Shown piece after piece: positions 4,627 through 59,278 of a DNA stretch of 64,000 nucleotides (positions within the stretch are counted from its first letter, which is position 1; every line of letters starts with the position of its first letter). The position numbers were made by a program, and so were the translations under genes. Origin of the DNA: a virus; IMG/VR virus record IMGVR_UViG_3300045988_111426; one strand, written 5' to 3'. The notes beneath the pieces were generated by a model, which made no database searches, had not been told where the DNA came from, and worked only from the letters and a program-made list of their open reading frames with translations.

Positions 4627-4690
4627 ATCTTAAGAGATCTTTTTTAGTGTTTTGTACGATTCTTATCATAAGAACATACTTTCCTTATCA

Positions 4691-4752
4691 CAGAGAGGTA
4701 CTTTCCTTGCGCTCTGATAGGTCTTGTGGGGTGAAAATAGCACAAATAAGCG
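4691..4752 (+). repeat. partial copy of dispersed hairpin element (left arm plus core)
   Basis: GAGGTACTTTCCTTGCGCTCTGA followed by core GTGAAAATAGC. The right arm is replaced by a different hairpin. Confidence 0.7.
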
Positions 4753-4785
4753 ATGACCTCAAGAGAGAGGTTCTCTTGAGGTCAT
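4753..4785. terminator. hairpin
   Basis: ATGACCTCAAGAGA / TCTCTTGAGGTCAT, a 14-bp stem. Confidence 0.55.
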
Positions 4786-8173: not shown

Positions 8174-8300
8174 GATCGGAATTGTTGTTTAGTTGAATTG
8201 ATTGATTGATCCGAGTGATCTTTCATAACAGTTATAACAAAAATCGTGCCAAATCATCACTGTCATGACAAAGTTGTCATATTCTGTCATCTTTGTCATA
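8174..8300 (-). repeat. duplicated leader/regulatory region, copy 1 (paralog of 55761-55902)
   Basis: About 130 bp nearly identical to 55761-55902, starting at the ATG (CATGATCGGAATTGTTGTTTAGTTGA...GATCCGAGTGATCTTTCATAACAGTTATAACAAA). Confidence 0.8.
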
Positions 8301-8346
8301 CTTCGTGTCATGTGTCTGTCATGTCATTCGTGTCATATTTTGTCAT
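8261..8346. promoter_or_regulatory. array of 9 TGTCAT repeats, including near-palindrome ATGACAAAGTTGTCAT
   Basis: TGTCAT at 8261, 8275, 8285, 8294, 8306, 8317, 8322, 8331 and 8341. Most spacings are 9-12 bp. Confidence 0.6.
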
Positions 8347-11461: not shown

Positions 11462-11890
11462 ATGGAAGTTTTTGGAGCTTTAACGAAAGTGGAAGTTGAG
11501 AACGGTTGTGTGAAAGTGACTGTCGATGAACCAATCCAACCATTCATTGATGAGCTTCGTCATATCGGTTTCAAGAAGCAGACAGCCTCGTTGTACGTGG
11601 CAGACAACACAGAACTCTTGGAATCTGCTCGAGAGATTTGTTCGTTCTATTTTTCTGCAGGGAAAACGATGACCTCGGGAAATCGTAAGCTTTGTAAGAC
11701 GATAGAAGACTACTATTCAAACGGTTGTGGGACTGCAGATGTTGACTTCAAGAAAACTGACGAAGGAATCTGGGTTTACTCATTGAGTGGAATCTACGGA
11801 AGTGCTGAAGATATGGCAGAAGATATAAAAAAGATGAGAGCATCGATAATTTGCACAAGAAATGGAAGAAGAGTTTGTTTTACACGGTAA
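11462..11890 (+). CDS. hypothetical protein
   Basis: Track ORF of 142 aa. Confidence 0.5.
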   Translation: MEVFGALTKVEVENGCVKVTVDEPIQPFIDELRHIGFKKQTASLYVADNTELLESAREICSFYFSAGKTMTSGNRKLCKTIEDYYSNGCGTADVDFKKTDEGIWVYSLSGIYGSAEDMAEDIKKMRASIICTRNGRRVCFTR

Positions 11891-12268: not shown

Positions 12269-13777
12269 ATGAATTCACGATACATACGAATAAGTACAGA
12301 ACTTCTACTTGAATTCGTTGCAAGTGCATCAGAGAAGCACGATACCGATGTTCGACTTCGTAGAATAACTTCGGAATATGACGGCACATGTACTCTGTAT
12401 AACGAGAAGGGAACTGGGAACAGTATCGACAAAGTGCATCTCATCACCGACAGGTATGACACAATGGCGGTTGGTGAAGAAGGTGGGAAACTGTCGGATT
12501 CCAACACGCTTTTCAGAGATGAAAAATGCGACCTTCGTTTCTATGACAAGATGAAATACAACAAGGTTCGTCTTCATCTTCTTTGTGGATACAACTTGCA
12601 GAACATAGAAGGCTTAGGTATAAACCTTTTCATTAGAGATACCGAGAAGGTCTTTAATCTTGCCGATATTGTCATTTTCTCTCCACGTATCGGAGATGTG
12701 ACATATACAAGATCACCAAAGAGAATCACGGAATCAGTCTTTGACAGATACATCGAGTTTGACATCATAAGCATTGACGATATTCTCGAATATTCTCGAA
12801 CAGATGAAGAAATGGTAAAGAGAGTGTTCGGACAAGATATGGTCATTGACGGCGTTCTTCATGTCGAGACTTATGAAATCCGAAATCTTCACGTAGAGAA
12901 CGGATTCAAGGTATTCCAAACATACAACAAGCATCGGTCATCATTTCCGATTGGGAACGAATATAAATCGTTAAGCGCAGAACTGAGATTTTCGGAAGAC
13001 AAGACTTGTGTTGAGTTCTCGGGAAGTTTTGAAGGTATGAGTTTCGAGGACTTCATGTACAGACTAAACTCGATGTCAAAGAACTCTTATTTTGTACAAC
13101 ACGAGATAAGAGTTGTTGAACAGGTTGGTAACTCTTTCATTGAGCAGGATACGTGGGTAACTGTACAGAACACTGACTTTGACAAGATCTTCAAGTTCAG
13201 ACCAGTGATAGAGAACAAGGGTGTGATCTCGGTCAGCATCGATTATAGGATGACCTTGGTGAATGCTTATAACGCAAACGGCATGAGTGTAGAAGCATCA
13301 ATAAGCACACGAGACATACAAAGTTTCCAAGGGAAGTTGGTAAAACTTCAAGCACCTTTGCAAAACATAAGAGTTGTGCAGAAAATTGCGAGATCTTCAG
13401 ATAAGAACATACGTGAGGTGTCAAACGATGTCATAAAGACGAAGTATATCACAAAGTACGTAAACGTTACCGATATCACAACCGACAAGAAGGACATCCA
13501 CGTCACGCCATTTAGATCGACCTACAGGATAAATCTGAAAGGTGTAGAATCACAGAACAACAATCATCGTGCTTTCCTCGTCTATGTTGATGACTATGGG
13601 CAGAAGCACTATATGAAGAACGTGGTGAGTGAAGAGCTGTCGGCTCGTGAGTACATGTTCATAATGGAAGAAAACACGTCTGTTACGATTCTTAAAAATG
13701 CGAATCGTAAGCTCTATTTCGTCATAATAGAGAATGATGTAGAAAATGTGATCGATGTCTTGAACATCACGACTTAA
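12269..13777 (+). CDS. hypothetical virion-type protein
   Basis: Track ORF of 502 aa with the late-type motif upstream. Confidence 0.65.
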   Translation: MNSRYIRISTELLLEFVASASEKHDTDVRLRRITSEYDGTCTLYNEKGTGNSIDKVHLITDRYDTMAVGEEGGKLSDSNTLFRDEKCDLRFYDKMKYNKVRLHLLCGYNLQNIEGLGINLFIRDTEKVFNLADIVIFSPRIGDVTYTRSPKRITESVFDRYIEFDIISIDDILEYSRTDEEMVKRVFGQDMVIDGVLHVETYEIRNLHVENGFKVFQTYNKHRSSFPIGNEYKSLSAELRFSEDKTCVEFSGSFEGMSFEDFMYRLNSMSKNSYFVQHEIRVVEQVGNSFIEQDTWVTVQNTDFDKIFKFRPVIENKGVISVSIDYRMTLVNAYNANGMSVEASISTRDIQSFQGKLVKLQAPLQNIRVVQKIARSSDKNIREVSNDVIKTKYITKYVNVTDITTDKKDIHVTPFRSTYRINLKGVESQNNNHRAFLVYVDDYGQKHYMKNVVSEELSAREYMFIMEENTSVTILKNANRKLYFVIIENDVENVIDVLNITT

Positions 13778-13846
13778 AGAGAGGTACTTTCCTTGAACTC
13801 GAAGACACCCAAGAATAGTTTCATAGCGGAAAGTATAAGAAAAAGC
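13774..13846 (+). repeat. partial copy of dispersed hairpin element
   Basis: TTAAAGAGAGGTACTTTCCTTGAACTCGAAG ... TTTCATAGCGGAAA. The TAA of TTAAAG is the stop codon of the upstream gene, and the right arm is replaced by a terminator hairpin. Confidence 0.7.
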
Positions 13847-13887
13847 AAGAGAGCCACATCTGGAACACTTCCAGATGTGGCTCTCTT
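13847..13887. terminator. bidirectional hairpin
   Basis: AAGAGAGCCACATCTGGAA / TTCCAGATGTGGCTCTCTT, a 19-bp stem. Confidence 0.65.
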
Positions 13888-13915
13888 GTTAGTAATATTA
13901 GAATAAAGTCGAATG

Positions 13916-19266: not shown

Positions 19267-19318
19267 AAAACCGATTGGGGTCATCTGATGCTATTTTCAG
19301 ATGACCCCAATCGGTTTT
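19267..19318. terminator. bidirectional hairpin
   Basis: AAAACCGATTGGGGTCATCTGA / TCAGATGACCCCAATCGGTTTT, a 22-bp stem. Confidence 0.7.
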
Positions 19319-19333
19319 CAAGTATGTCTTCTG

Positions 19334-19430
19334 ATAAAGACGAGGTACTTTCCTTGAACTTGGAGGTACTCGAAGCTATGAAAACAACACCAAACTTTTC
19401 AGAGTGCAAGGAAAGTGCCTTCCTTGAAGT
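19334..19430 (+). repeat. dispersed hairpin element, diverged full copy
   Basis: GGTACTTTCCTTG at 19344 and CAAGGAAAGTGCC at 19407. It abuts the stop codon of the TerL fragment. Confidence 0.75.
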
Positions 19431-19433
19431 CGG

Positions 19434-19895
19434 TTAACCATAGATCATCGTGTAAAGCTTTGATCTTAATCTGTTGATGAATGTTTGAGGGAAGAGGTCA
19501 GAAATCTTGAAGTTTCCGTGTTGCCCATTTATGACAGATCCCCAACCTTTACTTTTCCCAATCTGACGTGAAGCAAGGATAACGTTGTGCCTGTAATACT
19601 GAAGCTGTTGGATGATTCTTGTCTGATATGGTCTCAGTTTGATATGCTTGATACCATCATCAGTTTTTACCTTGGCCAGATTTTCTGAGAAGTACAAGAC
19701 AGAATCTTGAACCTTTGCAAGTTCAAGAAGTTCATCCTCTGTGTATGAGAAGTTGATACGTGGTTTCCTCAAGCGAACATCACCACTATAAAACGGATTC
19801 TTCTTGGGAAGTACACCCTTGTCGTTGAATTCCTGTATGAGCTTCTCTACACGTTCTGTAGACCACAGCATGTTCTCTACAACCTTCTTCGCCAT
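19434..19895 (-). CDS. terL: terminase large subunit, N-terminal fragment ending in an intein block-A-like tail
   Basis: Collinear with T4 gp17 up to Walker A (VLYFSENL...KLRPYQTRII...ILASRQIGK). It then switches to SKGWGSVINGQHGNFKISDLF...TFINRLRSKLY and stops. No Walker B or nuclease part is present. Confidence 0.7.
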   Translation of the reverse strand: MAKKVVENMLWSTERVEKLIQEFNDKGVLPKKNPFYSGDVRLRKPRINFSYTEDELLELAKVQDSVLYFSENLAKVKTDDGIKHIKLRPYQTRIIQQLQYYRHNVILASRQIGKSKGWGSVINGQHGNFKISDLFPQTFINRLRSKLYTMIYG

Positions 19896-29417: not shown

Positions 29418-30143
29418 TTATCTTAGGATTTCACACTCTCCAGTCTCGGTATCCAAGATGAATGCTTCGTGTTGATTAGAATCTGTGAAATAGAGGTTCT
29501 TACCATTGTCCATAGTCACACGATTAGAATCGATATTCGAGAAATCGAAAGCAGTATGACCAACTATTTGGTGATAATCTCCGTAAGGGTTTTCCGAGAG
29601 AGCATTTGGTCGAATCCAGATTGGAGACTGATGAATGTTGTCACCATATTGCGATGTTGTCCGTTCATCTTTTCGGAACTCGACAATCCTTGGAGATTGC
29701 TTGAACACACCATTGATATCTTCGACACTTGAATCTTCTCCAACCATTTCCTTGAACCAAGTCTCGGAGACCCCAGCATGAGAGAAAAGATAACCGTCAG
29801 ATTCATAGGAGAGAACCAAAGTTCCTCGATCTACAAGCTCATCAAGGAGACTTCCTACAAGGACAAATGTCGTGGTGGAAAATCCGCTGTATCTTCCCAT
29901 GCAAAACTTTGTATAGTGGAAGTCATGGTTTCCGATAAGCATTATGACTTTTTCCACTCCAATAGATTCTCGAAGAGCGAGGATCTTCTTGAAGTTCTCT
30001 GAAGCCACCTGCGCAGAGACTTTCTTGAATGAATCGAAATAGTCCCCCATAAAAACGATCTTCTCGACACTGTCTTTGTTTTTTTGAACATGTTCTATCC
30101 AAAAGTCGCTTTCGTGAATGTCACCAATTATGAGAATCTTCAT
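29418..30143 (-). CDS. calcineurin-like metallophosphoesterase (Ser/Thr phosphatase type)
   Basis: Motifs GDIHE, GDYFD, GNHD, SHAG and VGHT in canonical order. Confidence 0.75.
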   Translation of the reverse strand: MKILIIGDIHESDFWIEHVQKNKDSVEKIVFMGDYFDSFKKVSAQVASENFKKILALRESIGVEKVIMLIGNHDFHYTKFCMGRYSGFSTTTFVLVGSLLDELVDRGTLVLSYESDGYLFSHAGVSETWFKEMVGEDSSVEDINGVFKQSPRIVEFRKDERTTSQYGDNIHQSPIWIRPNALSENPYGDYHQIVGHTAFDFSNIDSNRVTMDNGKNLYFTDSNQHEAFILDTETGECEILR

Positions 30144-30230
30144 TTATCGTCTAATCGTTGTTTATTGATTGTCTTTACCTATCTGCATTATCTTATAGCA
30201 GATAAACAACAAAACATTTCTTCAGAAAGT

Positions 30231-31880
30231 ATGAAAAAATTGAGGACTGTAGGTTCTTCGGCTATATTCGACATAGAGAAATCGCCAATGGAGATCGAGT
30301 ATGTTATGGAGAAGGTTGAAGGTGAAAACTCATCTTCCTTGCTTCTCCGAGACTTTACGACTTCTTCCGATGGGAAAAATTGGGATTCGTGGAAATCGTA
30401 TAACAGAGATTCTCTTGTCGGTGTTCACGGAAAACATATCAAAGTCAGATACTCTCTTGTGGAGAACTTCTTGGGATCGACTATATCGATCGAGAAACCA
30501 CTAATCAAGTACAAATCTCCACAGACCACTTTTATAGATCAAGGAGAATCGTTCCTGCTGTCTGGTGTGGATTCACTTGCTGATTATTCTCGAATGTCAA
30601 TAGGTCTTCAGAAATTGGAGATCGACATGAACTATTACATCCAGCAACATTCAGCGGTGAGTGTTAAGTATTGGCACACAAATCCAGATCTGAAGTCCAA
30701 AGATGAGTTCTTAAGAGAATATTCTCTGCAGAATGTCGTCGACATGAAGATCTTAAAAGTTGTCTTGAAAGACAACCAGATCCCAGAACCTAAGCATGAG
30801 TTCTCACAATGGGGGATCGAGTTTGAAAAACTGGAAGTTTACTTTGAGAAGACCTATTTCGAAGAAGTGTTTGGGATAAAAGAAGAACCAAGAAAAATGG
30901 ACTACCTTTACTTCTCGGAGATTAACAGAATGTACATGATCCAAGACGTTTATCTCAATCATGGGATAGGTGAACATGGAAGCTTCTATGTTTGTACAAT
31001 CAAGAAGTATGAAGACATGACGAATGTCGACAAAAGGGATGATGATCTTGAGTTCTTAAAAGAACACGTGAAGATTGACGATTATTCAGATGAACAAATA
31101 GACGAAATGGAAGACATGCAGAACACGAAGCAAAATCTGGACAACGTAGGGGTTGATGATCTTCTTCATTCAGAGTTTGATCCAAGTCTTGTTAAATCTG
31201 AAAGATGTGATTATGATAACAATGGGAACTCACTTGGAAAGTTCATCTACGACATGTCAGTAGGGAAAACTGGAGAAACAGCTATCAAATACCTCCCGAG
31301 AGTTCATTCACGGCAGGGGATTTCCTTCATGTTCTGGATAGAACTTCTCGACGACAGTCTTTCGAAAGTGATCAATGTAGATGGGAAACCATTCTCAATT
31401 TCCGTTTCAACAAAGAACATAGTCGTCAGTGGTGAACATTCGTTCTCTTTGGAAATTGATCTTGAGCGGAGAAAGTTCTATTGTGTTGTCATAGGAATCA
31501 ACAATGAACACCACTTTATGAGGTTCAATATCTATCAAGTAAACGATGGAGATTCAACAATTCTCAAGAGTGTCTTCGACCATACAGAACCAATGGAGAA
31601 GGTCATGAAACTTCTGTACAGAGAAAGGTCATCTGTTTTGGAGATTGATGGACAAGTCGCACTAATTACTGGGAAATACGCCATTCGACAGATTCGAATC
31701 GCAAATCACGAAGTTGATGAAACTTACCATTCTTACATTATGTCGAAACAAATGGTGAAGACACCTTCGAAGTTCTTCATAATCGATGATTGTCGTGATC
31801 CATTGAACTTGGATAAAAAGTCAAGATCACTTTTCAGAGAAATCAACGAAAGTTTCCTTAAAAGAAGAACCATTCACTAA
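30231..31880 (+). CDS. hypothetical large protein
   Basis: Track ORF 30084..31880 trimmed to the ATG at 30231 (MKKLRTVG...). The longer form overlaps the phosphatase gene. Confidence 0.55.
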   Translation: MKKLRTVGSSAIFDIEKSPMEIEYVMEKVEGENSSSLLLRDFTTSSDGKNWDSWKSYNRDSLVGVHGKHIKVRYSLVENFLGSTISIEKPLIKYKSPQTTFIDQGESFLLSGVDSLADYSRMSIGLQKLEIDMNYYIQQHSAVSVKYWHTNPDLKSKDEFLREYSLQNVVDMKILKVVLKDNQIPEPKHEFSQWGIEFEKLEVYFEKTYFEEVFGIKEEPRKMDYLYFSEINRMYMIQDVYLNHGIGEHGSFYVCTIKKYEDMTNVDKRDDDLEFLKEHVKIDDYSDEQIDEMEDMQNTKQNLDNVGVDDLLHSEFDPSLVKSERCDYDNNGNSLGKFIYDMSVGKTGETAIKYLPRVHSRQGISFMFWIELLDDSLSKVINVDGKPFSISVSTKNIVVSGEHSFSLEIDLERRKFYCVVIGINNEHHFMRFNIYQVNDGDSTILKSVFDHTEPMEKVMKLLYRERSSVLEIDGQVALITGKYAIRQIRIANHEVDETYHSYIMSKQMVKTPSKFFIIDDCRDPLNLDKKSRSLFREINESFLKRRTIH

Positions 31881-31909
31881 ACGAAGAGACTTATCAACTA
31901 AAAAGAAGA

Positions 31910-31945
31910 ATGTGGGGAGAAGATGTTCGAAACTTCTCCCCACAT
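31910..31945 (+). terminator. hairpin
   Basis: ATGTGGGGAGAAG / CTTCTCCCCACAT. Confidence 0.6.
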
Positions 31946-32028
31946 CTGTATTCAAACATTGACCTTCCAGTCATATTCAGAAAAATTGACTGGAAAAATG
32001 ACTGGAAATGTGTTATTAAACTATCACA

Positions 32029-32131
32029 TTAAAGGAAGGTACTTTCCTTGCACTCGAAATAGCCCGAGAATATGAAAATAGCGGAAAATGGATCAGAGTT
32101 CAAGGAAAGTACCAAGGAAAGCCAAGGAGAG
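32029..32131 (+). repeat. dispersed hairpin element, copy A
   Basis: GGTACTTTCCTTG at 32038, core GAATATGAAAATAGCGGAAA, and CAAGGAAAGTACC at 32101 followed by AAGGAAAGCCAAGGAGAG. Confidence 0.85.
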
Positions 32132-32180
32132 GTATTCCGTGAGACTATGGGTCATCGTCCGAAGGCAATAGACCATTTCG

Positions 32181-32275
32181 AAGGATTATGGAAGACTATG
32201 GAAGACTATGAAAGACAATGACGATTGTTGAAAGACAACGGAGGATTATCAAAGGATTATGAAGAGACAATAGTT
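32181..32275 (+). repeat. 10-bp-phased degenerate repeat array
   Basis: aaggattatg|gaagactatg|gaagactatg|aaagacaatg|acgattgttg|aaagacaacg|gaggattatc. The units stay in register with the 10-nt blocks of the listing. Confidence 0.75.
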
Positions 32276-32286
32276 CTGATTTGTTA

Positions 32287-32392
32287 ATTAAGACGAGGTA
32301 CTTTCCTTGCGCTCTGAGATATTCAAGAATATGAAAATAGCGGAGACTATACTCGAGTTCAAGGAAAGTACCTTCCTGTAATCAGGAGACAT
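32287..32392 (+). repeat. dispersed hairpin element, copy B
   Basis: GGTACTTTCCTTG at 32297 and CAAGGAAAGTACC at 32360, then TTCCTGTAATCAGGAGAC. Confidence 0.85.
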
Positions 32393-32399
32393 ATTCTCG

Positions 32400-32580
32400 A
32401 GGATTATGGGTTTCTGTCGGAAGACAATCAAAGACAATGACTGATTATGGAAAGACAATGATGATCATCAAAGGACTATTGAAAGACAATGACTAATCAT
32501 CGAATACTATGAACGATAATCGGAAGACAATGAAGGATTATCAAAGGATTATTGAAAGAAAATGGCTAAAAATGGTCGAA
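32400..32580 (+). repeat. 10-bp-phased degenerate repeat array
   Basis: aagacaatca|aagacaatga|ctgattatgg|aaagacaatg|atgatcatca|aaggactatt|gaaagacaat|gactaatcat|... Confidence 0.75.
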
Positions 32581-32685
32581 TTAAAGAGAGGTACTTTCCT
32601 TGTCCTCGAAGACATTCAGTGGGGTAGAAATAGCGTCAAATAGATCAGAGCGCAAGGAAAGTACCTTCCTGTAATCAGAAGAGGT
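32581..32685 (+). repeat. dispersed hairpin element, copy C
   Basis: TTAAAGAGAGGTACTTTCCTTG at 32581 and CAAGGAAAGTACC at 32653, then TTCCTGTAATCAGAAGAG. Confidence 0.85.
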
Positions 32686-32699
32686 ATTCTGTTGAATGG

Positions 32700-33290
32700 T
32701 GGGTTTCTGTCGGAAGACAATGACTATTGTCAATGACTATGGAAAGACAATCGACTATGGAAAGACAATAGAGGATCGTGAAAAGATCATCAAAGACTTT
32801 GAAAGACAATCAAAGACAATAGCTGATTCTTTGAAGACTTTGGAATCTATTGATTAATCATTGAAAAGATCATCACTTCTTTGAAAATTTCTCTAAAGAT
32901 TGATTGATAGACTGATGACTTTTGTCTGAATCATAGATTTCCGCCCCTTTAATGATAATCGTTTTGAAGACAAAAGATGATCGTTAAATGGTTTTATTGT
33001 GGACGAGGATTGTTGAAAATCAAAATCAGTCTTTTTTGAATCCCAGAATAGACCAGAACAATTGAAAGAGACCATTGATGATTCCCGAGATATTTATGAT
33101 TCTTGGAAAGACTATGATTCTTGGAAAGACAATGGAGGATTATTCAAAGAGAGATTGAAATTGAAAGATAATCATTCCAAGAACGGAGATTTGTTAAGAA
33201 TTGTTAACTGATTTTGAATGGAAAGTTGAAAATTGGAGGATTCATCAGACAGATAATCATACAGATAATCAGATTATCCTCGGAATTTGC
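32700..33290 (+). repeat. extended degenerate repeat field (GAAAGACAAT / GACTATGG / GATTATC family)
   Basis: The same short units recur throughout, and no protein-like ORF is present. Confidence 0.6.
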
Positions 33291-33372
33291 CGACAAACCG
33301 TGCGTATACACGAAACTTTAAAAAAACGCGCGAATTCCCGTGTATACCCGTATACGCATGCGGTATTTTTTT

Positions 33373-33497
33373 CCAGTTTTATCGTAAATACAAAGTATTT
33401 ACAACTGGTTTGGGGTCAGCCTTGGCACGATAGTGCCAAGCCAGGCTGCCCCAAACCATACATTGAGCGCAGAAACATGTCGTGCGCATGTTTTTAA
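33373..33497 (+). ncRNA. candidate small structured RNA or DNA structure at the centre of the palindromic region
   Basis: Three consecutive hairpins: CCAGTT..GTAAATAC/GTATTTAC..AACTGG (33373-33408), GGTTTGGGGTCAGCC..TGGCAC/GTGCCA..GGCTGCCCCAAACC (33407-33457), and AAACATG/CATGTTT plus a T-run (33473-33495). Confidence 0.3.
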
Positions 33498-33714
33498 ATT
33501 TCCAGTTTAAACCAAAAGTACCAGGTGCGTGTTAGGGAACTTTAAAAAAACGCATGCGTGAAACTCCAAAAAAAGCGCACGCACGCAAAAAACTTTAAAA
33601 AAGACCTGTGTCAAATCCCCCGAACAGATTAACACCTTTTAACACCTTAAAACCGATATTCTCTTTCCAAGATATTCCTCCCATAAGCCACAGAGACCAT
33701 AACCCTCGAAAATA

Positions 33715-33820
33715 TGTCTCCTTGGCTTTCCTTGGTACTTTCCTTGAACTCGAGTATAGTCTCCGCTATTTTCATATTCTCAGATATCTCAGAGCGCAAG
33801 GAAAGTACCTTCCTTTAATT
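33715..33820 (-). repeat. dispersed hairpin element, copy B' (reverse complement of copy B)
   Basis: GGTACTTTCCTTG at 33734, core in reverse (TCCGCTATTTTCATATTC), and CAAGGAAAGTACC at 33797. Confidence 0.85.
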
Positions 33821-33824
33821 CAAT

Positions 33825-33960
33825 TATTTTCGATCATTGTCTCGATAGTCATTGATGATCTTCCATTGTCCTTCATTATTGTCATAGTCTTTTGATAATC
33901 CTTGGAAATAACCATTGTTTTCGGAAGATGATTCATAAACCTCAAAAATGTTCAGAATCG
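33825..33960 (-). repeat. mirrored degenerate repeat array
   Basis: CATTGTC / CATAGTC / GATAATCC units, which are reverse complements of the left-arm units. Confidence 0.65.
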
Positions 33961-34004
33961 ATATTCCCATGTGAACCGAGGAGACCATAATAATCAGAAA
34001 ATAC

Positions 34005-34107
34005 TCTCCTTGGCTTTCCTTGGTACTTTCCTTGCGCTCTGATCTATTTTCCGCTATTTTCATATTCTTGAACCTCTCAGAGCGCAAGGAAAGTACCTCT
34101 CTTTAAA
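34005..34107 (-). repeat. dispersed hairpin element, copy A' (reverse complement of copy A)
   Basis: CTCCTTGGCTTTCCTTGGTACTTTCCTTGCGCTCTGA ... TCAGAGCGCAAGGAAAGTACCTCTCTTTAAAG, with a 21-bp perfect stem. Confidence 0.85.
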
Positions 34108-34173
34108 GCGTATCAATTGATAATACACTTTAACACATTTCTTCAATCTTCAATCATCCCTCAAACAACAATC

Positions 34174-34235
34174 CGCCAATCTCCGATGAATTGGTTCTTT
34201 TTGATAAAAAAGAACCAATTCATCGGAGATTGGCG
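34174..34235. terminator. 29-bp perfect hairpin followed by a T-run
   Basis: CGCCAATCTCCGATGAATTGGTTCTTTTT gata AAAAAGAACCAATTCATCGGAGATTGGCG TTTTT. Confidence 0.55.
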
Positions 34236-34381
34236 TTTTTGGCATTAATAACTGTGATGGTCGTGAATAGCTTCCAATAATCCTCCAAAATCATCAATAA
34301 TCATCATTGAAACTAACATCTTGACATTCACAATAAGAACACCGAAGCAATCATTCAGAAGAGATTGTTTAAGGTTGGTTC

Positions 34382-36643: not shown

Positions 36644-36658
36644 TGGTTGATCATAAGC

Positions 36659-37801
36659 ATGTTAAGAGCAATTAAAGTAAGGTTATATCCAAACAAAGCG
36701 CAGGAACAAGAACTTAACAAGGTTCTTGGTGCTTATCGTTTTGTCTATAACCACATGCTCGATAAAAGAAAGACTGCTTATGAAACTGACAAGACAAGTC
36801 TAAGCGAAAACGATCTATCAAAGTACTTCCATGGAACATTGCTGAAAGATGAACAACATGTTTGGATAAAAGAACAGAACACAAAGGTGATGAACCAAGC
36901 AATCAAACAGATGGTCGGTGCTTATCAAAACTTCTTCAATCATCATAAAGGATTTCCAAAGTTTAAATCAAAGAAAGACAAACAATCGGCATTGTTTCCT
37001 CGTAATGCCATTTCAAAGAGGAACACTTTCGAAACGAAGCACATAACTTTAATCACTTCCCTTAAGAACCTCAGATTCCGTTGTTCTGACTTATATCACA
37101 AACGCTTGCAGAAATACAAGGACAACATAAGAAGCGCAACTCTCTCGAAAACCAAGAGTGGGAATTTCTTCTTGTCGATTCTTGTAGACATTCCCGAAGC
37201 GGAATTTGTGAAATTCGGAAAGACCAACAAACAAGTTGGTATTGACCTTGGCGTGAAAGATTTCGTTATAACCTCCGATGAAACTGTGTTTGAAAACAAA
37301 CACTTCTTCAAGAAGGAGGAAAAGAAGATGATCAAACTTCAACGTCAATTATCCAGAAAGGTCAAAGGTTCAAACAATAGGAACAAACAGAGAATCAGAC
37401 TTGCAAAAGTGATTGCGAATATAACGAACAAGAAAGAGAACTACATCCACTCAGTTGTGAACGAGATATTGAAATCATACGACACGGTGTTCATGGAAGA
37501 CTTGAATATTAAAGGGATGCTTGGAAATCGTTATCTTGCGAATGCTATCCAAGAGTCTGGATTTTATCGGTTCAAGTCGATATTGCAATATAAGGCTCTT
37601 ATGAATGATAAGCGAGTTGTTCTTATCAATAGGTTCTATCCAAGTTCAAAGACTTGTTCGTGTTGTGGTTACAAGAAGAAAGACTTGAAACTCGGTGATA
37701 GGTTTTGGACTTGTCCCGAATGTGGTGAATATCACGACAGAGATATAAACGCTTCGAAGAACATTCTTTTTGAAGGACAAAGAAAACTTCGAACTGGCTA
37801 A
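36659..37801 (+). mobile_element. tnpB: TnpB (IS200/IS605-family OrfB) RNA-guided nuclease gene, with no tnpA
   Basis: N-terminus MLRAIKVRLYPNKAQEQ. RuvC-I GIDLGVKDF, RuvC-II VFMEDLNIKGM, Zn finger CSCCGY...CPECGEYHDRDINASKNI (RuvC-III Asp). Confidence 0.85.
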
Positions 37802-38090
37802 GATATAAAAAAGATGAATAGGTGTTCGTAACACCGAATTTACGCTTGCGGACTGCTCTCTTATGGATGACCGAACCTCGTGTTCCTAAAAAGTAATGGT
37901 AGGTTGAAACAAGAAGTGAGAACTGGATAAAACGCAGATTTTTCACATACGATAAGGCTTTTACACATCCAAGGGAAGATTTGTCGATAGGTATGAAGCT
38001 TGTAAAATAGCCAAAGAATCTGGCCAAATAGAGGTCGATGATGAAAATATGGTTCTTTACTCGGAAGACCTCTACTGAATCACAAGATCA
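37802..38090 (+). ncRNA. candidate omega/reRNA scaffold and right end of the TnpB element
   Basis: 289 nt of ORF-free sequence directly 3' of tnpB, with local hairpins (for example GGTGTTcgtAACACC at 37822). The position matches where TnpB guide RNAs are encoded. The boundary was not determined. Confidence 0.4.
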
Positions 38091-41112: not shown

Positions 41113-41151
41113 GAAAGGCGACAACTCGATTTAGAGAGTTGTCGCCTTTTC
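41113..41151 (+). terminator. rho-independent terminator
   Basis: GAAAGGCGACAACTC / GAGTTGTCGCCTTTTC. Confidence 0.65.
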
Positions 41152-41183
41152 TGCATATTGGGATTAAAATCAAGATTTGTTGA

Positions 41184-41279
41184 ATTAAAGAGAGGTACTT
41201 TCCTTGTCCTCGAAGATATCTGAGAATATGAAAATAGCGGAAACTATACTCAAGCTCAAGGAAAGTACCTCTCTTTAAT
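41184..41279 (+). repeat. dispersed hairpin element, most symmetric copy
   Basis: 23-bp perfect terminal inverted repeats ATTAAAGAGAGGTACTTTCCTTG ... CAAGGAAAGTACCTCTCTTTAAT around core GAATATGAAAATAGCGGAAA. Confidence 0.9.
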
Positions 41280-41294
41280 CAGGAGAGTACTTTC

Positions 41295-46889: not shown

Positions 46890-46930
46890 GAGAAAGCCCA
46901 ACAACTTGATAGAAGTTGTTGGGCTTTCTC
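46890..46930. terminator. bidirectional hairpin
   Basis: GAGAAAGCCCAACAACTT / AAGTTGTTGGGCTTTCTC, an 18-bp stem. Confidence 0.65.
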
Positions 46931-46934
46931 TTTG

Positions 46935-47022
46935 CCTTTTCCTTGGGCTTTCTTGCCTTCGATGCTATGTAAGTACCACTAAGACCATCAGAGTGCAAGG
47001 AAAGTACCTTCCTGTAATCAGA
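46935..47022 (+). repeat. degenerate copy of dispersed hairpin element (right arm intact)
   Basis: CAGAGTGCAAGGAAAGTACCTTCCTGTAATCAGAAGACC at 46989-47022. The left part is degraded (CCTTGGGCTTTCTTGCC). Confidence 0.6.
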
Positions 47023-47026
47023 AGAC

Positions 47027-48424
47027 CTATGTGAAGATCTGATAATCTTCTGGACTTATGAGTTCCCCAGTTTCTATGATTCTCATCTTTGAGAATTCTG
47101 TATCAAACTTTGCGAAGAAGTTCTTGTATTTCGAATCACGACATTTTAGATTCTTCATGTACATCGTGTGCTCGACCTGCATCTTCTCAGTGGCGATCAT
47201 CCCGATAACGCTATCGCATCTATAAACAATACCGTAAGATTCAGCAACAGATGAAAGTGTCATATCGGACATGTTCAAAGCACCTCTATTCAACTGATGA
47301 GCAGTTATCACACACCAGTTCGTCTCTGAAGCCATTTGATAGAGATCATCGGCATTCTGCTTGTGATATTGATACGTTTTATCTTGAGCCGTGCCGTGAT
47401 CGTTTTGTAGTTCTGTGAAATAGTCTATCACGATTGCGTGCCACTTGATCCCATGCTTCTCTTCAAGTCTCTTTGCAGTTCCGTAGATGTTTGAGACACC
47501 AGTCTTTGGGAACTTCAAGGCGAGGAACTTACCTGGTGGTACACCAATGTTCATGTGCTTCTGTCTAAACTTTTGGATAGATTCTGATAGAAGTGCGTCG
47601 TCGTTGGAGAATGTGTCATATTCCGATATTGGAATGTCGAAGGCGTTCGAGCCAATTCGTCGGAAAGTTCTTGGAATTGACATTTCGACAGACACAAACA
47701 GCACATTTTTGCCCGATCTTGAAATGTTGAGTGCAAGATTACCAAGGATCACCGATTTCCCAGAGTTTGTAGATCCCATGAACATGTTGAGAGTACCAGG
47801 TATGAATCCGTTATGTCTGTCCTCGGTGAGCATCTGGTTGAGCATTCCGTAACCAGTGTCGATATAATCTTCGATAGAAATCTGCTTGTGAGATTGAGGA
47901 TCATAGAAGTCAAAGACCTCCTCATCACCAAACGATAAAGATGATCCTCGAACTACAATCTCTCGTGCTTTTGATATCACTTCCTTTACATTCTCGGGTG
48001 TGATATTCTGTGTCTGCATATAAGATATTGATTCTTTATATGCTCGCTGGTTGTTTTGCCACATTATCCATGCACCAACAGTCTCGTCAAGCCATTCCTC
48101 AGAGAATGCTTTTATGTTTGTCTTGATGATGTATGATGCGTTCGCAATGAAAGTCTTCGCATTGTCGTCCTCTGACATGTTCAAGTCAATCATAAACGAC
48201 TTTTTGTCTTCCATTACGAGATATTCGATCTGCTCTACACTTGGATTTTCTGGAGAGAATATCTGCTCGTGGAATCTTTCGTAGAATTGTTTGGTGAGCT
48301 TTGATAGTGCCTTCAGAGTTGGAGATTTGAAGAACTCATGATCAACAGATTTCCAAAGGTGAGGTTGTGAGTTTATGTAAACGTAAGCTATGTTCTCAAA
48401 GTTCTGACCAAATCCAACAGCCAT
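47027..48424 (-). CDS. DnaB-like replicative helicase (gp41-like role)
   Basis: Walker A GSTNSGKS, Walker B AIVIDYF, and AHQLNRG. The GTG start in the track lies inside a terminator hairpin, so the ORF was trimmed to the ATG at 48424. Confidence 0.75.
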   Translation of the reverse strand: MAVGFGQNFENIAYVYINSQPHLWKSVDHEFFKSPTLKALSKLTKQFYERFHEQIFSPENPSVEQIEYLVMEDKKSFMIDLNMSEDDNAKTFIANASYIIKTNIKAFSEEWLDETVGAWIMWQNNQRAYKESISYMQTQNITPENVKEVISKAREIVVRGSSLSFGDEEVFDFYDPQSHKQISIEDYIDTGYGMLNQMLTEDRHNGFIPGTLNMFMGSTNSGKSVILGNLALNISRSGKNVLFVSVEMSIPRTFRRIGSNAFDIPISEYDTFSNDDALLSESIQKFRQKHMNIGVPPGKFLALKFPKTGVSNIYGTAKRLEEKHGIKWHAIVIDYFTELQNDHGTAQDKTYQYHKQNADDLYQMASETNWCVITAHQLNRGALNMSDMTLSSVAESYGIVYRCDSVIGMIATEKMQVEHTMYMKNLKCRDSKYKNFFAKFDTEFSKMRIIETGELISPEDYQIFT

Positions 48425-55760: not shown

Positions 55761-55906
55761 GATCGGAATTGTTGTTTAGTTGAGTTGAAGTTGATTGACT
55801 GATCCGAGTGATCTTTCATAACAGTTATAACAAAGATCGTGCCAAATCATAACTGTCATGACAAAATTGTCATACTCTATCATTCTTGTCATGACAAAAT
55901 TGTCAT
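55761..55906 (-). repeat. duplicated leader/regulatory region, copy 2, with two 16-bp palindromes
   Basis: Near-identical to 8174-8300. ATGACAAAATTGTCAT occurs at 55858-55873 and 55891-55906, 33 bp apart. Confidence 0.8.
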
Positions 55907-59186: not shown

Positions 59187-59278
59187 GCTTTGTATCGATG
59201 TTTTATATTTTCGAAGGCACAGAGCGCAACGGAAATACCTCTCTATGCCTTCAAAAATACTTTCTTATGATTGGCGGT

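What the first reader, a model, noticed from the sequence alone, without database searches (positions are those of the whole stretch)
41184..41279. Dispersed ~95-bp hairpin element family (GGTACTTTCCTTG / CAAGGAAAGTACC) at module boundaries
The best copy (41184-41279) has 23-bp perfect terminal inverted repeats, ATTAAAGAGAGGTACTTTCCTTG and CAAGGAAAGTACCTCTCTTTAAT. They flank a conserved core, GAATATGAAAATAGCGGAAA.

Related full or partial copies lie at 4691, 13774, 19334, 32029, 32287, 32581, 33715 (reverse), 34005 (reverse) and 46935. A possible relic is at 59221.

Nearly all copies sit in intergenic spots between convergent genes or between functional modules, next to but distinct from ordinary terminator hairpins. 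In three partial copies (4691, 13774, 46935) one arm has been swapped for or degraded next to another hairpin, which looks like recombination scars.

Arm extensions come in two interchangeable variants, GCGCTCTGA and AACTCGAG, mixed between copies. That is consistent with exchange among copies. The element could be a MITE-like or palindrome-associated mobile element, a mobile regulatory cassette comparable to the promoter-stem-loop cassettes reported in T4-type phages, or a recombination or RNA-processing signal.
Basis: seen in the sequence. Interest (0 to 1): 0.7.

Follow-up and report, generated by a model that had tools for sequence, protein, structure and literature searches.

The report
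Conserved inverted-repeat cassettes in phage genome
A ~150-kb gut or oral phage distantly related to T4 carries about a dozen copies of a 76-125 bp directional cassette, two invariant 13-bp inverted arms around a conserved core, that sits at fixed boundaries between transcription units, swaps internal pieces between copies, does not transpose and matches no known RNA or mobile-element family.

Summary

The family is restricted to one clade of ~145-152 kb Bacteroidota-type phages distantly related to T4. It is absent from 185,579 bacterial species genomes. Copies sit at identical orthologous sites in every relative, so it is not a MITE.

The arms are almost invariant (1.2% changed bases in 65 distinct copies) and unchanged in relatives with ~80% protein identity. 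There is no compensatory change and no covariation. Arms stay conserved even where the partner arm has decayed, so selection acts on the sequence, not the helix.

Arm spacing is 50 nt in 70 of 74 copies. Core and a 3' "leader" give the element polarity. Internal modules are shuffled between copies.

Singletons lie at transcription-unit boundaries next to ordinary terminators (4 of 6-7 convergent junctions). Five copies lie in a 2-kb non-coding cluster with helically phased 10-mer arrays converging on a highly conserved structured centre.

Best reading (about 0.35): a protein-recognised DNA boundary or architectural cassette, analogous to BIME/REP and PeSL but a member of neither. An RNA 3'-end or processing hairpin is the main rival.

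The parts
41172..41294 (+). Best full copy: 5' flank ATTAAAGAGA, arms at 41194-41206 and 41257-41269, 50-nt interior with the core GAATATGAAAATAGCGGAAA, and 3' leader TCTCTTTAATCAGGAGAGTACTTTC. It lies between bidirectional terminator 41114-41149 and the stop codon (41295) of the oncoming gp4-like gene.
19318..19440 (+). Full copy with the alternative core GCTATGAAAACAACACC; arms 19344-19356 and 19407-19419 (one mismatch). The leader-like flank is on the left, the only site where core and leader orientation disagree. It lies between terminator ~19271-19314 and the stop codon of the oncoming gene at 19434.
32013..32140 (+). Cluster unit 1: hairpin cassette with arms 32038-32050 and 32101-32113 and an AAGGAAAGCCAAGGAGAGG leader, followed by a 10-bp repeat array.
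32276..32399 (+). Cluster unit 2 cassette, arms 32297-32309 and 32360-32372.
32565..32692 (+). Cluster unit 3 cassette, arms 32590-32602 and 32653-32665; variant core GGGGTAGAAATAGCG.
33707..33833 (-). Cluster unit 4 cassette in reverse orientation, arms 33734-33746 and 33797-33809; points leftwards towards the centre.
33996..34122 (-). Cluster unit 5 cassette in reverse orientation, arms 34022-34034 and 34085-34097; 21-bp perfect stem.
46933..47032 (+). Full-length copy with a degenerate left arm (TGCCTTTTCCTTG), core GCTATGTAAGTACCAC, perfect right arm 46996-47008 and a leader. It lies between terminator 46890-46930 and the stop codon of the DnaB-like helicase (47027). Conserved in 12 relatives and, with an intact distal arm, in the 79% relative L137.
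13767..13858 (+). Copy whose right arm (CAAGAGAGCCACA, exactly 50 nt after left arm 13783-13795) forms the left stem of terminator hairpin 13846-13888. It starts at the stop codon of gene 12269-13777. The left arm is perfect in 7 of 7 relatives while the adjacent linker is hypervariable.
4673..4785 (+). Copy with left arm 4697-4709, core GGTGAAAATAGCACAAA, and a right-arm position (4760-4772, CAAGAGAGAGGTT) embedded in terminator-like hairpin 4753-4785. It lies between two co-directional minus-strand genes, upstream of the NAD-dependent ligase.
59203..59258 (-). Relic: arm-like GGTATTTCCGTTG plus the extension CGCTCTGTG. Orthologous to a perfect solitary arm in relative L137 (1267).
32140..33200 (+). 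Context: arrays of degenerate 10-11 bp repeats (GGAAGACTAT / GAAAGACAAT / AAGGATTAT) that follow each forward cassette. They are non-coding: ORFs after the hairpins run from 2 to 54 codons and are not conserved.
33820..33960 (-). Context: the same 10-bp repeat array in reverse orientation, between cluster units 5 and 4.
33290..33560 (.). Context: highly conserved centre on which the five units converge. It contains GC-rich hairpins with compensatory changes, T-runs and AACTTTAAAAAAnGCGCG repeats. One copy per genome, found only in this clade.
31910..31945 (.). Context: terminator-like hairpin bounding the cluster on the left.
34174..34235 (.). Context: 29-bp perfect palindrome (bidirectional terminator-like) bounding the cluster on the right.

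Best explanation
The element is a lineage-specific, non-mobile, directional cis-acting cassette of about 125 bp: 5' flank, 13-bp arm, 50-nt interior with an A/T-rich core, inverted 13-bp arm, then a leader.

Its arms are recognised as a specific sequence, most probably as double-stranded DNA, by a phage-encoded or host protein. The two half-sites usually lie 63 bp centre to centre, about six helical turns. The cassette marks boundaries between transcription units, next to ordinary terminators.

In multiplied form, extended by helically phased GGAAAG/GGAAGAC 10-mers, it flanks a conserved structured centre in a 2-kb non-coding locus. I infer an architectural, insulating or loading-site role comparable to enterobacterial BIME/RIP elements. 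In that role, inverted palindromic units around a protein-binding linker sit at 3' ends and convergent junctions.

Because about 100 bp of near-identical sequence is repeated 10-15 times in a phage with a UvsX/gp46-47 type recombination system, copies also undergo frequent ectopic gene conversion. This shuffles the interior modules and occasionally makes the cassette a breakpoint of genome rearrangement.

Shown: the anatomy, the sequence-level (not pairing-level) constraint, fixed positions, polarity, module shuffling and boundary location. Inferred: the DNA-level protein recognition and the architectural or insulator function.
For: 1. Sequence-level constraint. 21 of 1690 arm bases (1.24%) differ in 65 distinct copies. 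The arms are unchanged in L143, where the neighbouring protein is 80% identical and the cluster centre only 84%. They are nearly unchanged in L137/L144, at 61-79% protein identity. There is no compensatory change in any arm pair. Pairing is 89.7% observed against 89.8% shuffled, and the covariation score is below the shuffle mean (own counts). Single-sided changes are not strand-biased: 11 G.T-type against 8 A.C-type.

2. An arm stays conserved without a good partner. The 13783 left arm is perfect in 7 of 7 relatives although the right-arm position has become a terminator stem. A solitary arm persists at L137:1267.

3. Geometry. 70 of 74 arm pairs span exactly 76 bp, although the interiors fall into very different sequence classes. 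The interior has no indel in the orthologous alignments, whereas the flanks do. 53 of 65 'solo' arms have a degenerate partner at 49-50 nt.

4. The arm motif recurs as tandem direct repeats at roughly helical spacing: CAAGGAAAGTACC-AAGGAAAGCC-AAGGAGAGG in 18 of 47 main-class copies. It continues into 10-11 bp phased arrays. This is a DNA-binding-array signature and not a coding or RNA-helix one.

5. Location. Enriched at convergent junctions and always in inter-unit gaps. At S4 and in the cluster the cassettes lie between two terminators, so they are shielded from read-through. The order of element and terminator varies between sites, which argues against a fixed 3'-UTR RNA role.

6. Exchange. 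At orthologous sites the interior is 66-71% identical (51% in the linker), against 77-86% for the flanks and 95-100% for the arms. Recombinant interiors are seen and modules are at linkage equilibrium.

7. No known RNA family matches.
Against: - No binding protein was identified. The 549-aa gene next to the cluster is a core gene that is also present in relatives lacking the family.
- The spacing is not absolute: 75- and 78-bp copies exist, and the L143 interiors are 49, 50 and 46 nt.
- Inverted half-sites 63 bp apart are unusual for a single DNA-binding protein.
- The hairpin is thermodynamically very strong, and an RNA or single-stranded DNA hairpin recognised sequence-specifically would leave the same signature of invariant arms.
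- Concerted evolution by gene conversion contributes to the uniformity within a genome.
- There are no transcript, footprint or nick data.
- All relatives are metagenome assemblies, so some mosaicism or rearrangement (L003) could be an assembly artefact.
Confidence: 0.35

Rival explanations
1. RNA-level element. The arms form a long hairpin in transcripts that read into unit boundaries and in a transcript of the non-coding cluster. The hairpin would serve as an RNase III-type processing site, a 3'-exonuclease barrier (mRNA stabiliser) or a termination aid, like the T7 RNase III sites or REP stabilisers. A sequence-specific RNA-binding protein or nuclease would explain the invariant arms.
For: - Very stable hairpins on both strands, z from -3.6 to -8.8.
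- Position within 15-26 nt of stop codons and adjacent to intrinsic terminators.
- In copies 4697 and 13783 the interior supplies the U-rich tract after a terminator hairpin on the minus strand.
- In L137 an arm-like sequence extends a terminator stem.
- Repetition between non-coding units resembles processing sites in a precursor RNA.
Against: - No covariation or compensatory change in 65 copies or across lineages, whereas the nearby centre hairpins show two compensatory pairs in only six sequences.
- Arms are conserved where the partner has decayed.
- A 50-nt unstructured, length-constrained 'loop' is not expected of a generic hairpin.
- Orientation relative to the transcript that could contain it differs between sites: antisense at 41194, 19344 and 46933; sense at 13783, S3 and S5.
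- S4 and the cluster lie between two terminators.
- There is no U-tract, so it is not an intrinsic terminator.
- No Rfam match.
Confidence: 0.25
2. Functionally neutral or selfish repeat. A duplicated terminator-flanking sequence is kept uniform purely by frequent ectopic gene conversion in a recombination-proficient T4-like phage. Its only consequence is to act as a recombination hotspot or module linker.
For: - Mosaic interiors and linkage equilibrium of modules.
- Copy-number variation of cluster units between relatives, 4-5 units.
- A synteny break at a copy.
- A possible rearrangement in L003.
- The phage encodes UvsX and SbcCD-like (gp46/47-type) proteins.
Against: - Conversion alone would homogenise copies within a genome but let lineages drift apart. 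The same 13-mer is retained in three lineages down to 61-80% protein identity, while linkers a few bases away are hypervariable.
- Positions are fixed and non-random.
- Polarity is maintained, 67 to 2.
- Solitary arms are conserved.
Confidence: 0.15
3. PeSL-like promoter-terminator cassette. A stem-loop insulates from upstream transcription, and a promoter in the core or leader drives transcription out of the leader side: non-coding repeat RNAs in the cluster and antisense RNAs at convergent junctions.
For: - The phage is distantly related to T4.
- A terminator usually lies on the 5' side and the cassette points away from it.
- The element is directional with a conserved leader.
- The upstream gene is co-directional at 8 of 10 sites.
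- Copies recombine, as PeSLs do (PMC2839356, PMC4122927).
- S5 lies between two co-directional genes.
Against: - No family-wide promoter. Sigma70-like hits are not enriched overall (49 against 45.9), and only one incidental hit overlaps a copy.
- The Bacteroidota -33/-7 pattern is not enriched and is absent from the elements.
- The phage's late-type motifs lie elsewhere.
- No Shine-Dalgarno sequence (1 of 74 genes uses one) and no conserved downstream ORF.
- Most singletons face the 3' end of an oncoming gene.
- No indel polymorphism of flanked ORFs was seen in close relatives.
Confidence: 0.08
4. Non-autonomous mobile element (MITE, or a palindrome-associated element of the IS200/IS605 type) mobilised in trans, for example in connection with the TnpB gene at 36647-37801.
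For: - Terminal inverted repeats and a ~100-bp size.
- Multiple dispersed copies.
- A TnpB gene (HTH_OrfB_IS605, OrfB_IS605, Cas12f1-like TNB) lies 2.5 kb from the cluster.
Against: - Every site examined is occupied in every relative; no empty site exists.
- Partial copies are stable.
- No TnpA/Y1 or other transposase lies beside tnpB.
- No shared 11-mer between the tnpB flanks and the elements, and no arm motif within 36-38 kb.
- Absent from bacterial genomes and from all other viral contigs.
- No target-site duplication could be defined, because no empty site exists.
Confidence: 0.03

Closest known systems
BIME / RIP composite REP elements of enterobacteria (inverted REP units around a conserved linker that binds IHF; gyrase and Pol I binding; located at 3' ends and between convergent genes). 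Compared from established knowledge and PMC3733652.
   Same: - Extragenic.
- Two inverted palindromic units flank a conserved, directional linker.
- Enriched at gene 3' ends and convergent junctions, next to terminators.
- Many near-identical copies.
- Substrates for recombination.
- Can also act in RNA.
   Different: - Found in a phage genome at ~10-15 copies, not hundreds in a chromosome.
- Arms are 13 bp and A/T-rich, without the GTAG/CGTC tag.
- The interior is 50 nt.
- No RAYT transposase.
- No known binding protein.
- No sequence similarity.
PeSL promoter-early stem-loop cassettes of T4-type phages (Arbiol et al. 2010, PMC2839356; Comeau et al. 2014, PMC4122927).
   Same: - ~100-bp conserved intergenic cassettes in T4-like genomes that contain a stem-loop.
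- Mark module boundaries.
- Recombine with each other and can be rearrangement breakpoints.
- Degraded 'half' copies occur.
   Different: - A PeSL is a short G/C stem-loop terminator, then a sigma70-like -35/-10 promoter, then a Shine-Dalgarno sequence and ATG, lying between co-directional small ORFs in hyperplastic regions.
- Here there is no promoter, Shine-Dalgarno sequence or downstream ORF.
- The inverted repeat encloses a 50-nt conserved interior.
- Singletons lie mostly at convergent junctions of core genes.
- No ORF indels are associated with them in close relatives.
RNase III processing sites of phage T7/T3 early and late mRNAs (established knowledge).
   Same: - Repeated, mutually similar ~60-100-nt hairpins between transcription or translation units of a lytic phage.
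- Can define and stabilise 3' ends.
   Different: - T7 sites lie within polycistronic transcripts in one orientation and have an internal bubble in a ~20-bp helix.
- Here the orientation relative to transcripts varies, the 'loop' is 50 nt, and cleavage is untested.
Iteron arrays with an inverted-repeat operator at plasmid and phage replication origins (lambda ori, P4 ori/crr, pPS10/R6K-type) and the phased repeat boxes of pac sites (SPP1, P1). Established knowledge; relevant to the cluster only.
   Same: - Helically phased direct repeats sharing a motif with an inverted repeat.
- Arranged around a conserved A/T-rich, hairpin-rich centre in a non-coding region.
   Different: - No initiator or terminase link was shown.
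- The inverted half-sites are 50 nt apart.
- Additional solitary copies are dispersed at gene boundaries.
MITEs and IS200/IS605-derived palindrome-associated transposable elements.
   Same: - Small non-coding repeats with inverted termini.
- A TnpB gene is present in the same genome.
   Different: - No insertion polymorphism.
- No cognate TnpA.
- No similarity to the tnpB flanks.
- Restricted to one phage clade.

Membership tests
PeSL (T4-type promoter-early stem-loop cassette) | Sigma70-like -35/N17/-10 early promoter immediately downstream of the stem-loop | tested here: not met
   The sigma70 scan found 49 sites against 45.9 expected in 30-48 kb. Only one incidental hit (33732-33760) overlaps a copy and it is not shared by the family. 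The Bacteroidota -33/-7 pattern has 2 hits against 2.3 expected, none in an element.
PeSL (T4-type promoter-early stem-loop cassette) | Shine-Dalgarno sequence and start codon of a downstream gene at the 3' end of the cassette | tested here: not met
   Shine-Dalgarno-like motifs precede 1 of 74 genes. ORFs after cluster copies run from 2 to 54 codons and are not conserved. Singletons abut the stop codon of an oncoming gene.
PeSL (T4-type promoter-early stem-loop cassette) | Short stem-loop acting as a terminator; location between co-directional ORFs in hyperplastic regions, with associated indels between close relatives | tested here: not met
   The stem encloses a 50-nt interior and has no U-tract. 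4 of 5 window singletons are at convergent junctions. Orthologous sites are collinear in 6-12 relatives. Only one synteny break was seen, in the 79% relative.
REP / BIME | 20-40 bp imperfect palindrome with a conserved GTAG or CGTC 5' tetranucleotide | tested here: not met
   The arms read GGTACTTTCCTTG / CAAGGAAAGTACC and carry no GTAG or CGTC tag (definition from PMC3733652).
REP / BIME | Associated RAYT (TnpA_REP, Y1 HUH transposase) in the genome | tested here: inconclusive
   No Y1 transposase was found among about 38 window proteins scanned with Pfam or PHROGs. The other ~90 kb of the genome was not scanned.
REP / BIME | Extragenic location biased to 3' ends and convergent junctions; composite of inverted units around a conserved linker | tested here: met
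   This is an architectural analogy only.
MITE / IS200-IS605-derived PATE | Presence/absence polymorphism at orthologous sites (evidence of transposition) | tested here: not met
   The element is present in 8/8 relatives at site 41194, 6/6 at 19344, 7/7 at 13783 and 12/12 at 46996. It is also retained at the helicase site in the 79% relative.
MITE / IS200-IS605-derived PATE | Cognate transposase whose element ends resemble the repeat | tested here: not met
   A TnpB is present but no TnpA was found next to it. There is no shared 11-mer between the tnpB flanks and the elements.
MITE / IS200-IS605-derived PATE | Target-site duplication or a defined target motif | not testable with these tools
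   No empty site is available for comparison. The flanks are themselves part of the conserved cassette.
Structured RNA family (Rfam) / covarying RNA helix | Match to a curated covariance model | tested here: not met
   Only four tRNAs reach the gathering score in the window. No hit on any element at E <= 5 in 31.8-34.4 kb.
Structured RNA family (Rfam) / covarying RNA helix | Compensatory base changes that maintain the helix | tested here: not met
   There are 0 compensatory changes in the 13 arm pairs. The whole-model covariation score is 0.044 against 0.047 in shuffles. Pairing equals the independence expectation outside the arms, and mutual information is only local.
Intrinsic (Rho-independent) terminator | Short G+C-rich hairpin with a 3-8 nt loop, followed by a U-tract | tested here: not met
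   The terminator scan picks up the neighbouring hairpins (41114-41149, 46890-46930 and others) but not the elements, except for a trivial flank hit at 41269-41287. The loop is 44-50 nt.
Invertible-promoter 'inverton' | Both orientations of the segment between the inverted repeats present in a population | not testable with these tools
   Needs read-level data. In assemblies, core orientation is coupled to the flank in 67 copies against 2, both exceptions at the 19344 site. A 50-bp segment is very short for recombinase-mediated inversion (inference).

The most novel reading that the evidence does not exclude
The dispersed cassettes and the 2-kb cluster may form one cis-acting system. A dedicated sequence-specific protein would bind the GGTACTTTCCTTG arm and the related GGAAAG/GGAAGAC 10-mers. 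It would nucleate a large nucleoprotein complex on the phased arrays around the conserved structured centre, which could be a replication origin, a packaging-initiation site or a non-coding RNA locus. The same protein would occupy solitary inverted pairs at transcription-unit boundaries as satellite sites, for example as loading, insulation or topological-barrier sites that coordinate replication or late transcription with unit boundaries. That would be a genome-organising site network not described for T4-like phages.
Probability: 0.15. Interest if true: 0.75.

Novelty: new variant of a known kind. Interest (0 to 1): 0.45.

Why it matters
Large uncultivated Bacteroidota phages of the human microbiome have essentially unknown regulatory and replication signals. 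This family gives a precisely defined, strongly selected cis element (arms, spacing, polarity, fixed boundary positions) that can be used in three ways:

- As bait to find its binding factor.
- As a marker of transcription-unit and module boundaries.
- As a natural record of ectopic gene conversion in phage genomes.

It also shows that strong hairpin potential with invariant arms need not mean a structured RNA or a mobile element. The contrast with the covarying centre hairpins a few hundred bases away makes that point clearly. The associated 2-kb repeat locus is a good candidate for the phage's origin, pac site or a non-coding RNA gene, none of which is known for this group.

Tried and rejected
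- Known RNA family: Rfam gathering and permissive scans gave only tRNAs and microRNA noise on an unrelated palindrome.
- tRNA-like 76-mer: ARAGORN finds only four true tRNAs.
- Close phage in INPHARED: none. The nearest capsid is Flavobacterium phage MaF61 at 39%.
- Host-derived repeat: the arm pair has 0 hits in 185,579 bacterial or archaeal species genomes.
- Divergent copies found through the core alone: all 50-odd extra hits lack arms and are chance matches. Degenerate-arm and metagenome scans returned only the same clade.
- Micro-ORF in the element (MKIAE...KEST..): the ATG is lost in variant cores and the frame is not conserved. Rejected by inspection.
- Small genes after cluster hairpins: ORF lengths run from 2 to 54 codons.
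- Covariation in a shifted register: mutual information over all column pairs shows only local haplotype blocks.
- Bacteroidota promoter and the late-promoter motif inside elements: none.
- Link to TnpB or to an RNA from the cluster centre: no shared 11-mers.
- The 549-aa gene upstream of the cluster as partner protein: no Pfam, PHROG or PDB match, and it is conserved in relatives that lack the family. Structure prediction was therefore not pursued.
- Replication-direction polarity: all five window singletons share the same orientation on both sides of the cluster, so orientation does not mirror around it.
- L003, where a 10-bp array abuts the 19344-type copy: cannot be told apart from a chimeric metagenome assembly.
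Full report
OBSERVATION. The sequence at 41184-41279 is as described: 23-bp perfect terminal inverted repeats around a 50-nt interior that holds GAATATGAAAATAGCGGAAA. The 13-mer arm GGTACTTTCCTTG occurs 18 times in the window at up to 2 mismatches, against 1.09 expected from shuffles. Extracting the copies shows seven arm pairs that each span exactly 76 bp, plus three apparently partial copies. Nothing else exceeds noise.

GENOME CONTEXT. The window belongs to a large phage distantly related to T4. It encodes:
- a Gp23-type major capsid protein, a prohead protease, UvsX, SbcC/SbcD-like (gp46/47-type) proteins, an NAD-dependent ligase and a helicase;
- a DnaB-like helicase, a gp4-like head-completion protein and a baseplate-hub-like protein;
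- four tRNAs.

No close relative exists in INPHARED. The best capsid match is Flavobacterium phage MaF61 at 39%, followed by Lak, Tenacibaculum and Chryseobacterium phages. Shine-Dalgarno motifs precede only 1 of 74 genes, which fits a Bacteroidota host. T4-late-like motifs (TAAATAACGAAA, 7 hits against 0.6 expected) precede many genes, including the capsid gene, but never lie in an element.

DISTRIBUTION. The arm pair at 45-55 nt spacing is found in 38 IMG/VR stretches and 34 metagenome stretches. All come from one clade of ~145-152 kb contigs that are 88-93% identical to the window in genes. It has no match in one genome each of 185,579 bacterial and archaeal species. A core-only search gives only chance hits without arms outside the clade, and a degenerate-arm pattern adds nothing.

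Graded relatives were reached through neighbouring proteins:
- L143, where the gene upstream of the cluster is 80% identical, keeps the whole cluster with identical arms.
- The phage of L137/L144 (79% helicase, 61% for the other gene) keeps a copy after the helicase stop codon with arms GGTACTTCCCTTG and CAAGGAAAGTGCC. It also has a solitary perfect arm orthologous to the window relic at 59221, and a terminator whose stem is made of arm-like sequence.
- Relatives at or below 58% helicase identity lack the family.

ANATOMY. Across window and loci, 70 of 74 arm pairs span exactly 76 bp; the others span 75 or 78. The information profile shows nearly invariant arms, a conserved CTC/GAG three bases inside each arm, variable 'linkers', and a conserved core that comes in a few types, all alignable as RRTATGAAAAYARC.

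The element is polar. The core orientation is coupled to a conserved 5' flank (ATTAAAGRRA) and a 3' 'leader' (TAATCAGAAGAnnTATTCT, or AAGGAAAGCCAAGGAGAGnTATT) in 67 copies against 2, and both exceptions are at the 19344 site.

The 'half' copies at 4697 and 13783 carry CAAGAGAG.. exactly 50 nt after the left arm. They are therefore full-length copies whose right arm has been absorbed into a terminator stem. Of 65 arms without a good partner, 53 have a degenerate CAAG/AAGG/CAA partner at 49-50 nt.

IS THE HAIRPIN SELECTED AS A HELIX? All copies fold into strong hairpins on either strand, with z from -3.6 to -8.8. Nothing shows selection for pairing:
- Every arm pair is either invariant or changed on one side only. 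Pairing is 89.7% observed against 89.8% in shuffles, and the covariation score of 0.044 is below the shuffle mean of 0.047.
- Outside the arms and CTC/GAG, the pairing frequency equals the expectation under independence at every symmetric column pair. This includes the 10-bp outer flanks that give the best copy its 23-bp stem.
- Mutual information over all column pairs reveals only local haplotype blocks.
- Single-sided changes are not strand-biased: 11 G.T-type against 8 A.C-type.

Only 21 of 1690 arm bases (1.24%) differ from consensus. The same 13-mer persists in lineages whose proteins are 61-80% identical. It also persists at sites where the partner arm is degenerate; the 13783 left arm is perfect in 7 of 7 relatives. 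By contrast, the GC-rich hairpins in the centre of the cluster show two compensatory pairs among only six sequences. The constraint on the arms therefore acts on the sequence itself.

MOBILITY AND EXCHANGE. At orthologous sites the element is always present: 8/8 at 41194, 6/6 at 19344, 7/7 at 13783 and 12/12 at 46996. The interiors nevertheless turn over:
- At orthologous sites the arms are 95-100% identical, the flanks 77-86%, and the interior 66-71%, falling to 51% in the linker.
- Alternative interiors occur at the same site, and L010 is a clear recombinant between the two types.
- With modules defined as 5' flank, left linker, core, right linker and 3' flank, 8 of 10 module pairs show no association beyond the null, and all four gametes are present for most.
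- Cluster units vary between 4 and 5 per genome.
- In L137 the collinearity with the window, which runs from 60.5 kb to the helicase, ends exactly at the element-plus-terminator junction.

Frequent ectopic gene conversion among copies, and occasional rearrangement at them, is well supported. The caveat is that all relatives are metagenome assemblies. L003, where a 10-bp array abuts the 19344-type copy, could be chimeric.

LOCATION. Among intergenic gaps longer than 70 bp in the window, 4 of 6-7 convergent junctions carry a copy, against 2-3 of 25 other gaps (Fisher p = 0.006-0.026). Every singleton is adjacent to an ordinary, usually bidirectional, terminator hairpin. The order differs between sites:
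- terminator then element at 41194, 19344 and 46933;
- element then terminator at 13783 and S3/S6;
- a tandem pair between two terminators at S4;
- no terminator, between co-directional genes, at S5.

In the element's own frame the upstream gene is co-directional at 8 of 10 sites, and the leader usually faces the stop codon of an oncoming gene 15-26 nt away. The element is thus a boundary feature, but it is not consistently inside one transcript in one orientation.

THE CLUSTER. Five of the seven full window copies lie in a 2.5-kb gene-free stretch (31881-34381). It is bounded by terminator-like hairpins at 31910-31945 and 34174-34235. Each cassette is followed by the conserved leader (...ATGGGTTTCTGTCGGAAGACAAT) and by 100-180 bp of degenerate 10-11 bp repeats (GGAAGACTAT / GAAAGACAAT / AAGGATTAT). 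The 10-mer RRAAGACWAT has 14 of its 17 window hits there, and identity autocorrelation peaks at 10-11, 20-21 and 30 bp, not at 3. ORFs after the hairpins run from 2 to 54 codons and are not conserved, so the units are non-coding.

Three units point rightwards and two leftwards. They converge on a ~270-bp centre (33290-33560) that is almost 100% identical among relatives whose genes are 88-93% identical. That centre is unique in each genome and absent elsewhere, and it contains hairpins with compensatory changes. The arm motif recurs as tandem direct repeats at about helical spacing in the leader of 18 of 47 copies (CAAGGAAAGTACC-AAGGAAAGCC-AAGGAGAGG). The arm therefore looks like the strongest member of a set of related, phased sites.

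INTERPRETATION. The evidence points to a cis element whose arms are read as sequence:
- sequence-level rather than pairing-level constraint;
- conservation of unpaired arms;
- near-fixed 63-bp centre-to-centre spacing, about six helical turns (inference);
- the link to helically phased direct repeats;
- occurrence between terminators.

The most economical reading is recognition as duplex DNA by a protein. The function would then be architectural, insulating or a loading site at unit boundaries, analogous to BIME/RIP elements. Gene conversion would be a by-product in a recombination-proficient phage. I give this 0.35, because no protein was identified and the spacing relaxes in L143 (46, 49 and 50 nt).

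A sequence-specifically recognised RNA or single-stranded DNA hairpin (processing site, stabiliser or termination aid) would leave much the same signature, and I give it 0.25. A neutral repeat homogenised by conversion gets 0.15. It is disfavoured by the cross-lineage conservation next to hypervariable linkers. A PeSL-type promoter cassette gets 0.08 and a MITE/PATE 0.03; both fail defining features that were tested here.

COMPARISON WITH KNOWN SYSTEMS. PeSLs are short terminator stem-loops followed by a sigma70-like promoter, a Shine-Dalgarno sequence and an ATG. They lie between co-directional ORFs of hyperplastic regions and mediate indels and mini-circles (PMC2839356, PMC4122927). The present family shares the recombining boundary-cassette behaviour but has none of the defining parts.

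REP/BIME elements share the extragenic, convergent-junction, inverted-units-around-a-linker architecture. They differ in sequence tag, copy number, host and RAYT association (PMC3733652).

A TnpB gene lies at 36647-37801. It has no TnpA beside it and shares no sequence with the elements. The arm sequence does not occur in the searchable literature.

VERDICT. This is a real, well-delimited, strongly constrained repeat family in a poorly known phage clade. It is not mobile, not a known RNA and not a PeSL. It is best classed as a new variant of the dispersed intergenic palindromic-cassette kind. Its function is inferred, not shown. Interest is moderate (0.45). The associated cluster with its conserved structured centre is the most promising lead.

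Noticed in passing
window 33290-33560: A ~270-bp non-coding stretch at the centre of the repeat cluster is almost 100% identical in seven relatives whose genes are 88-93% identical. It holds a hairpin plus T-run (33348-33372), hairpin 33373-33407, a long GC hairpin (33409-33459) and ACATG..CATGT followed by a T-run (to about 33497). Two compensatory pairs appear when the 80% relative and others are included. It occurs once per genome, has no Rfam hit, and is absent from bacteria and other viral contigs. It is a candidate novel non-coding RNA of about 125 nt, or a replication or packaging origin.
   Followed up: partly
window 32140-33200 and 33820-33960: Arrays of degenerate 10-11 bp repeats (GGAAGACTAT / GAAAGACAAT / AAGGATTAT) with helical-repeat periodicity follow each hairpin cassette. 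They are non-coding, and the number of units differs between relatives.
   Followed up: partly
window 33317, 33537, 33590 (and relatives in alignment A3): Repeats of AAACTTTAAAAAA(C)GCGCG-like sequence flank the conserved centre. Copy number varies from 2 to 5 between relatives.
   Followed up: no
window 36647-37801 (+), with 37802-38090 downstream: A TnpB gene (HTH_OrfB_IS605, OrfB_IS605 and Cas12f1-like TNB domains; phrog_506, E = 3e-112) with no TnpA beside it. It is conserved in relatives, including the 80% relative L143. The 289-nt non-coding tail is a likely omega-RNA region. An 18-mer just after the stop codon (AAGATATAAAAAAGATGA, 37800-37817) recurs at 11820-11837.
   Followed up: partly
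window 2585, 6652, 12242, 17422, 44979, 45025, 52312: The motif TAAATAACGAAA (7 hits against 0.6 expected) lies 15-30 nt upstream of many genes, including the major capsid gene. A second recurrent upstream motif, (C/A)TATAAAAA, resembles the T4 late promoter TATAAATA. These are probably the phage's late or middle promoters.
   Followed up: partly
window 8174-8346 and 55761-55902; L138 3575-3633 and 11475-11531: A ~140-bp intergenic block is duplicated at two sites and ends in arrays of TGTCAT / TGTCATGACAAAGTTGTCATA palindromes. The same palindrome family occurs in a 57% relative that lacks the hairpin family, so it is an older, more widely conserved operator- or promoter-like signal.
   Followed up: no
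window-wide (74 crude gene calls): Shine-Dalgarno-like sequences precede only 1 of 74 genes, and upstream regions are A-rich. This is consistent with Bacteroidota-type translation initiation and supports the host assignment.
   Followed up: partly
window 34174-34235: A 29-bp perfect palindrome with a 4-nt spacer (CGCCAATCTCCGATGAATTGGTTCTTTTT GATA AAAAAGAACCAATTCATCGGAGATTGGCG) lies between the cluster and tRNA-Lys. It attracts spurious microRNA-precursor hits in Rfam. It is probably a bidirectional terminator.
   Followed up: no
window 30084-31880: The mechanical 598-aa ORF (TTG start) is probably about 549 aa and starts near MKKLRT, judging from 24 homologues that cover 92% of it. It is an orphan core gene, conserved to ~40% identity, with no Pfam, PHROG or PDB match.
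   Followed up: partly
L143 9385-9480: The 80% relative has about ten tandem copies of TAGTCAATCTT between the cluster and tRNA-Lys. This array is absent from the window.
   Followed up: no
L010/L044 (site 46.9 kb), L010 (site 41.1 kb), L047 (site 13.8 kb): In some relatives the ordinary terminator hairpin next to an element is replaced by an unrelated G/C-rich low-complexity hairpin, or is preceded by a long A-run. This is either rapid terminator turnover next to the cassettes or an assembly artefact.
   Followed up: no
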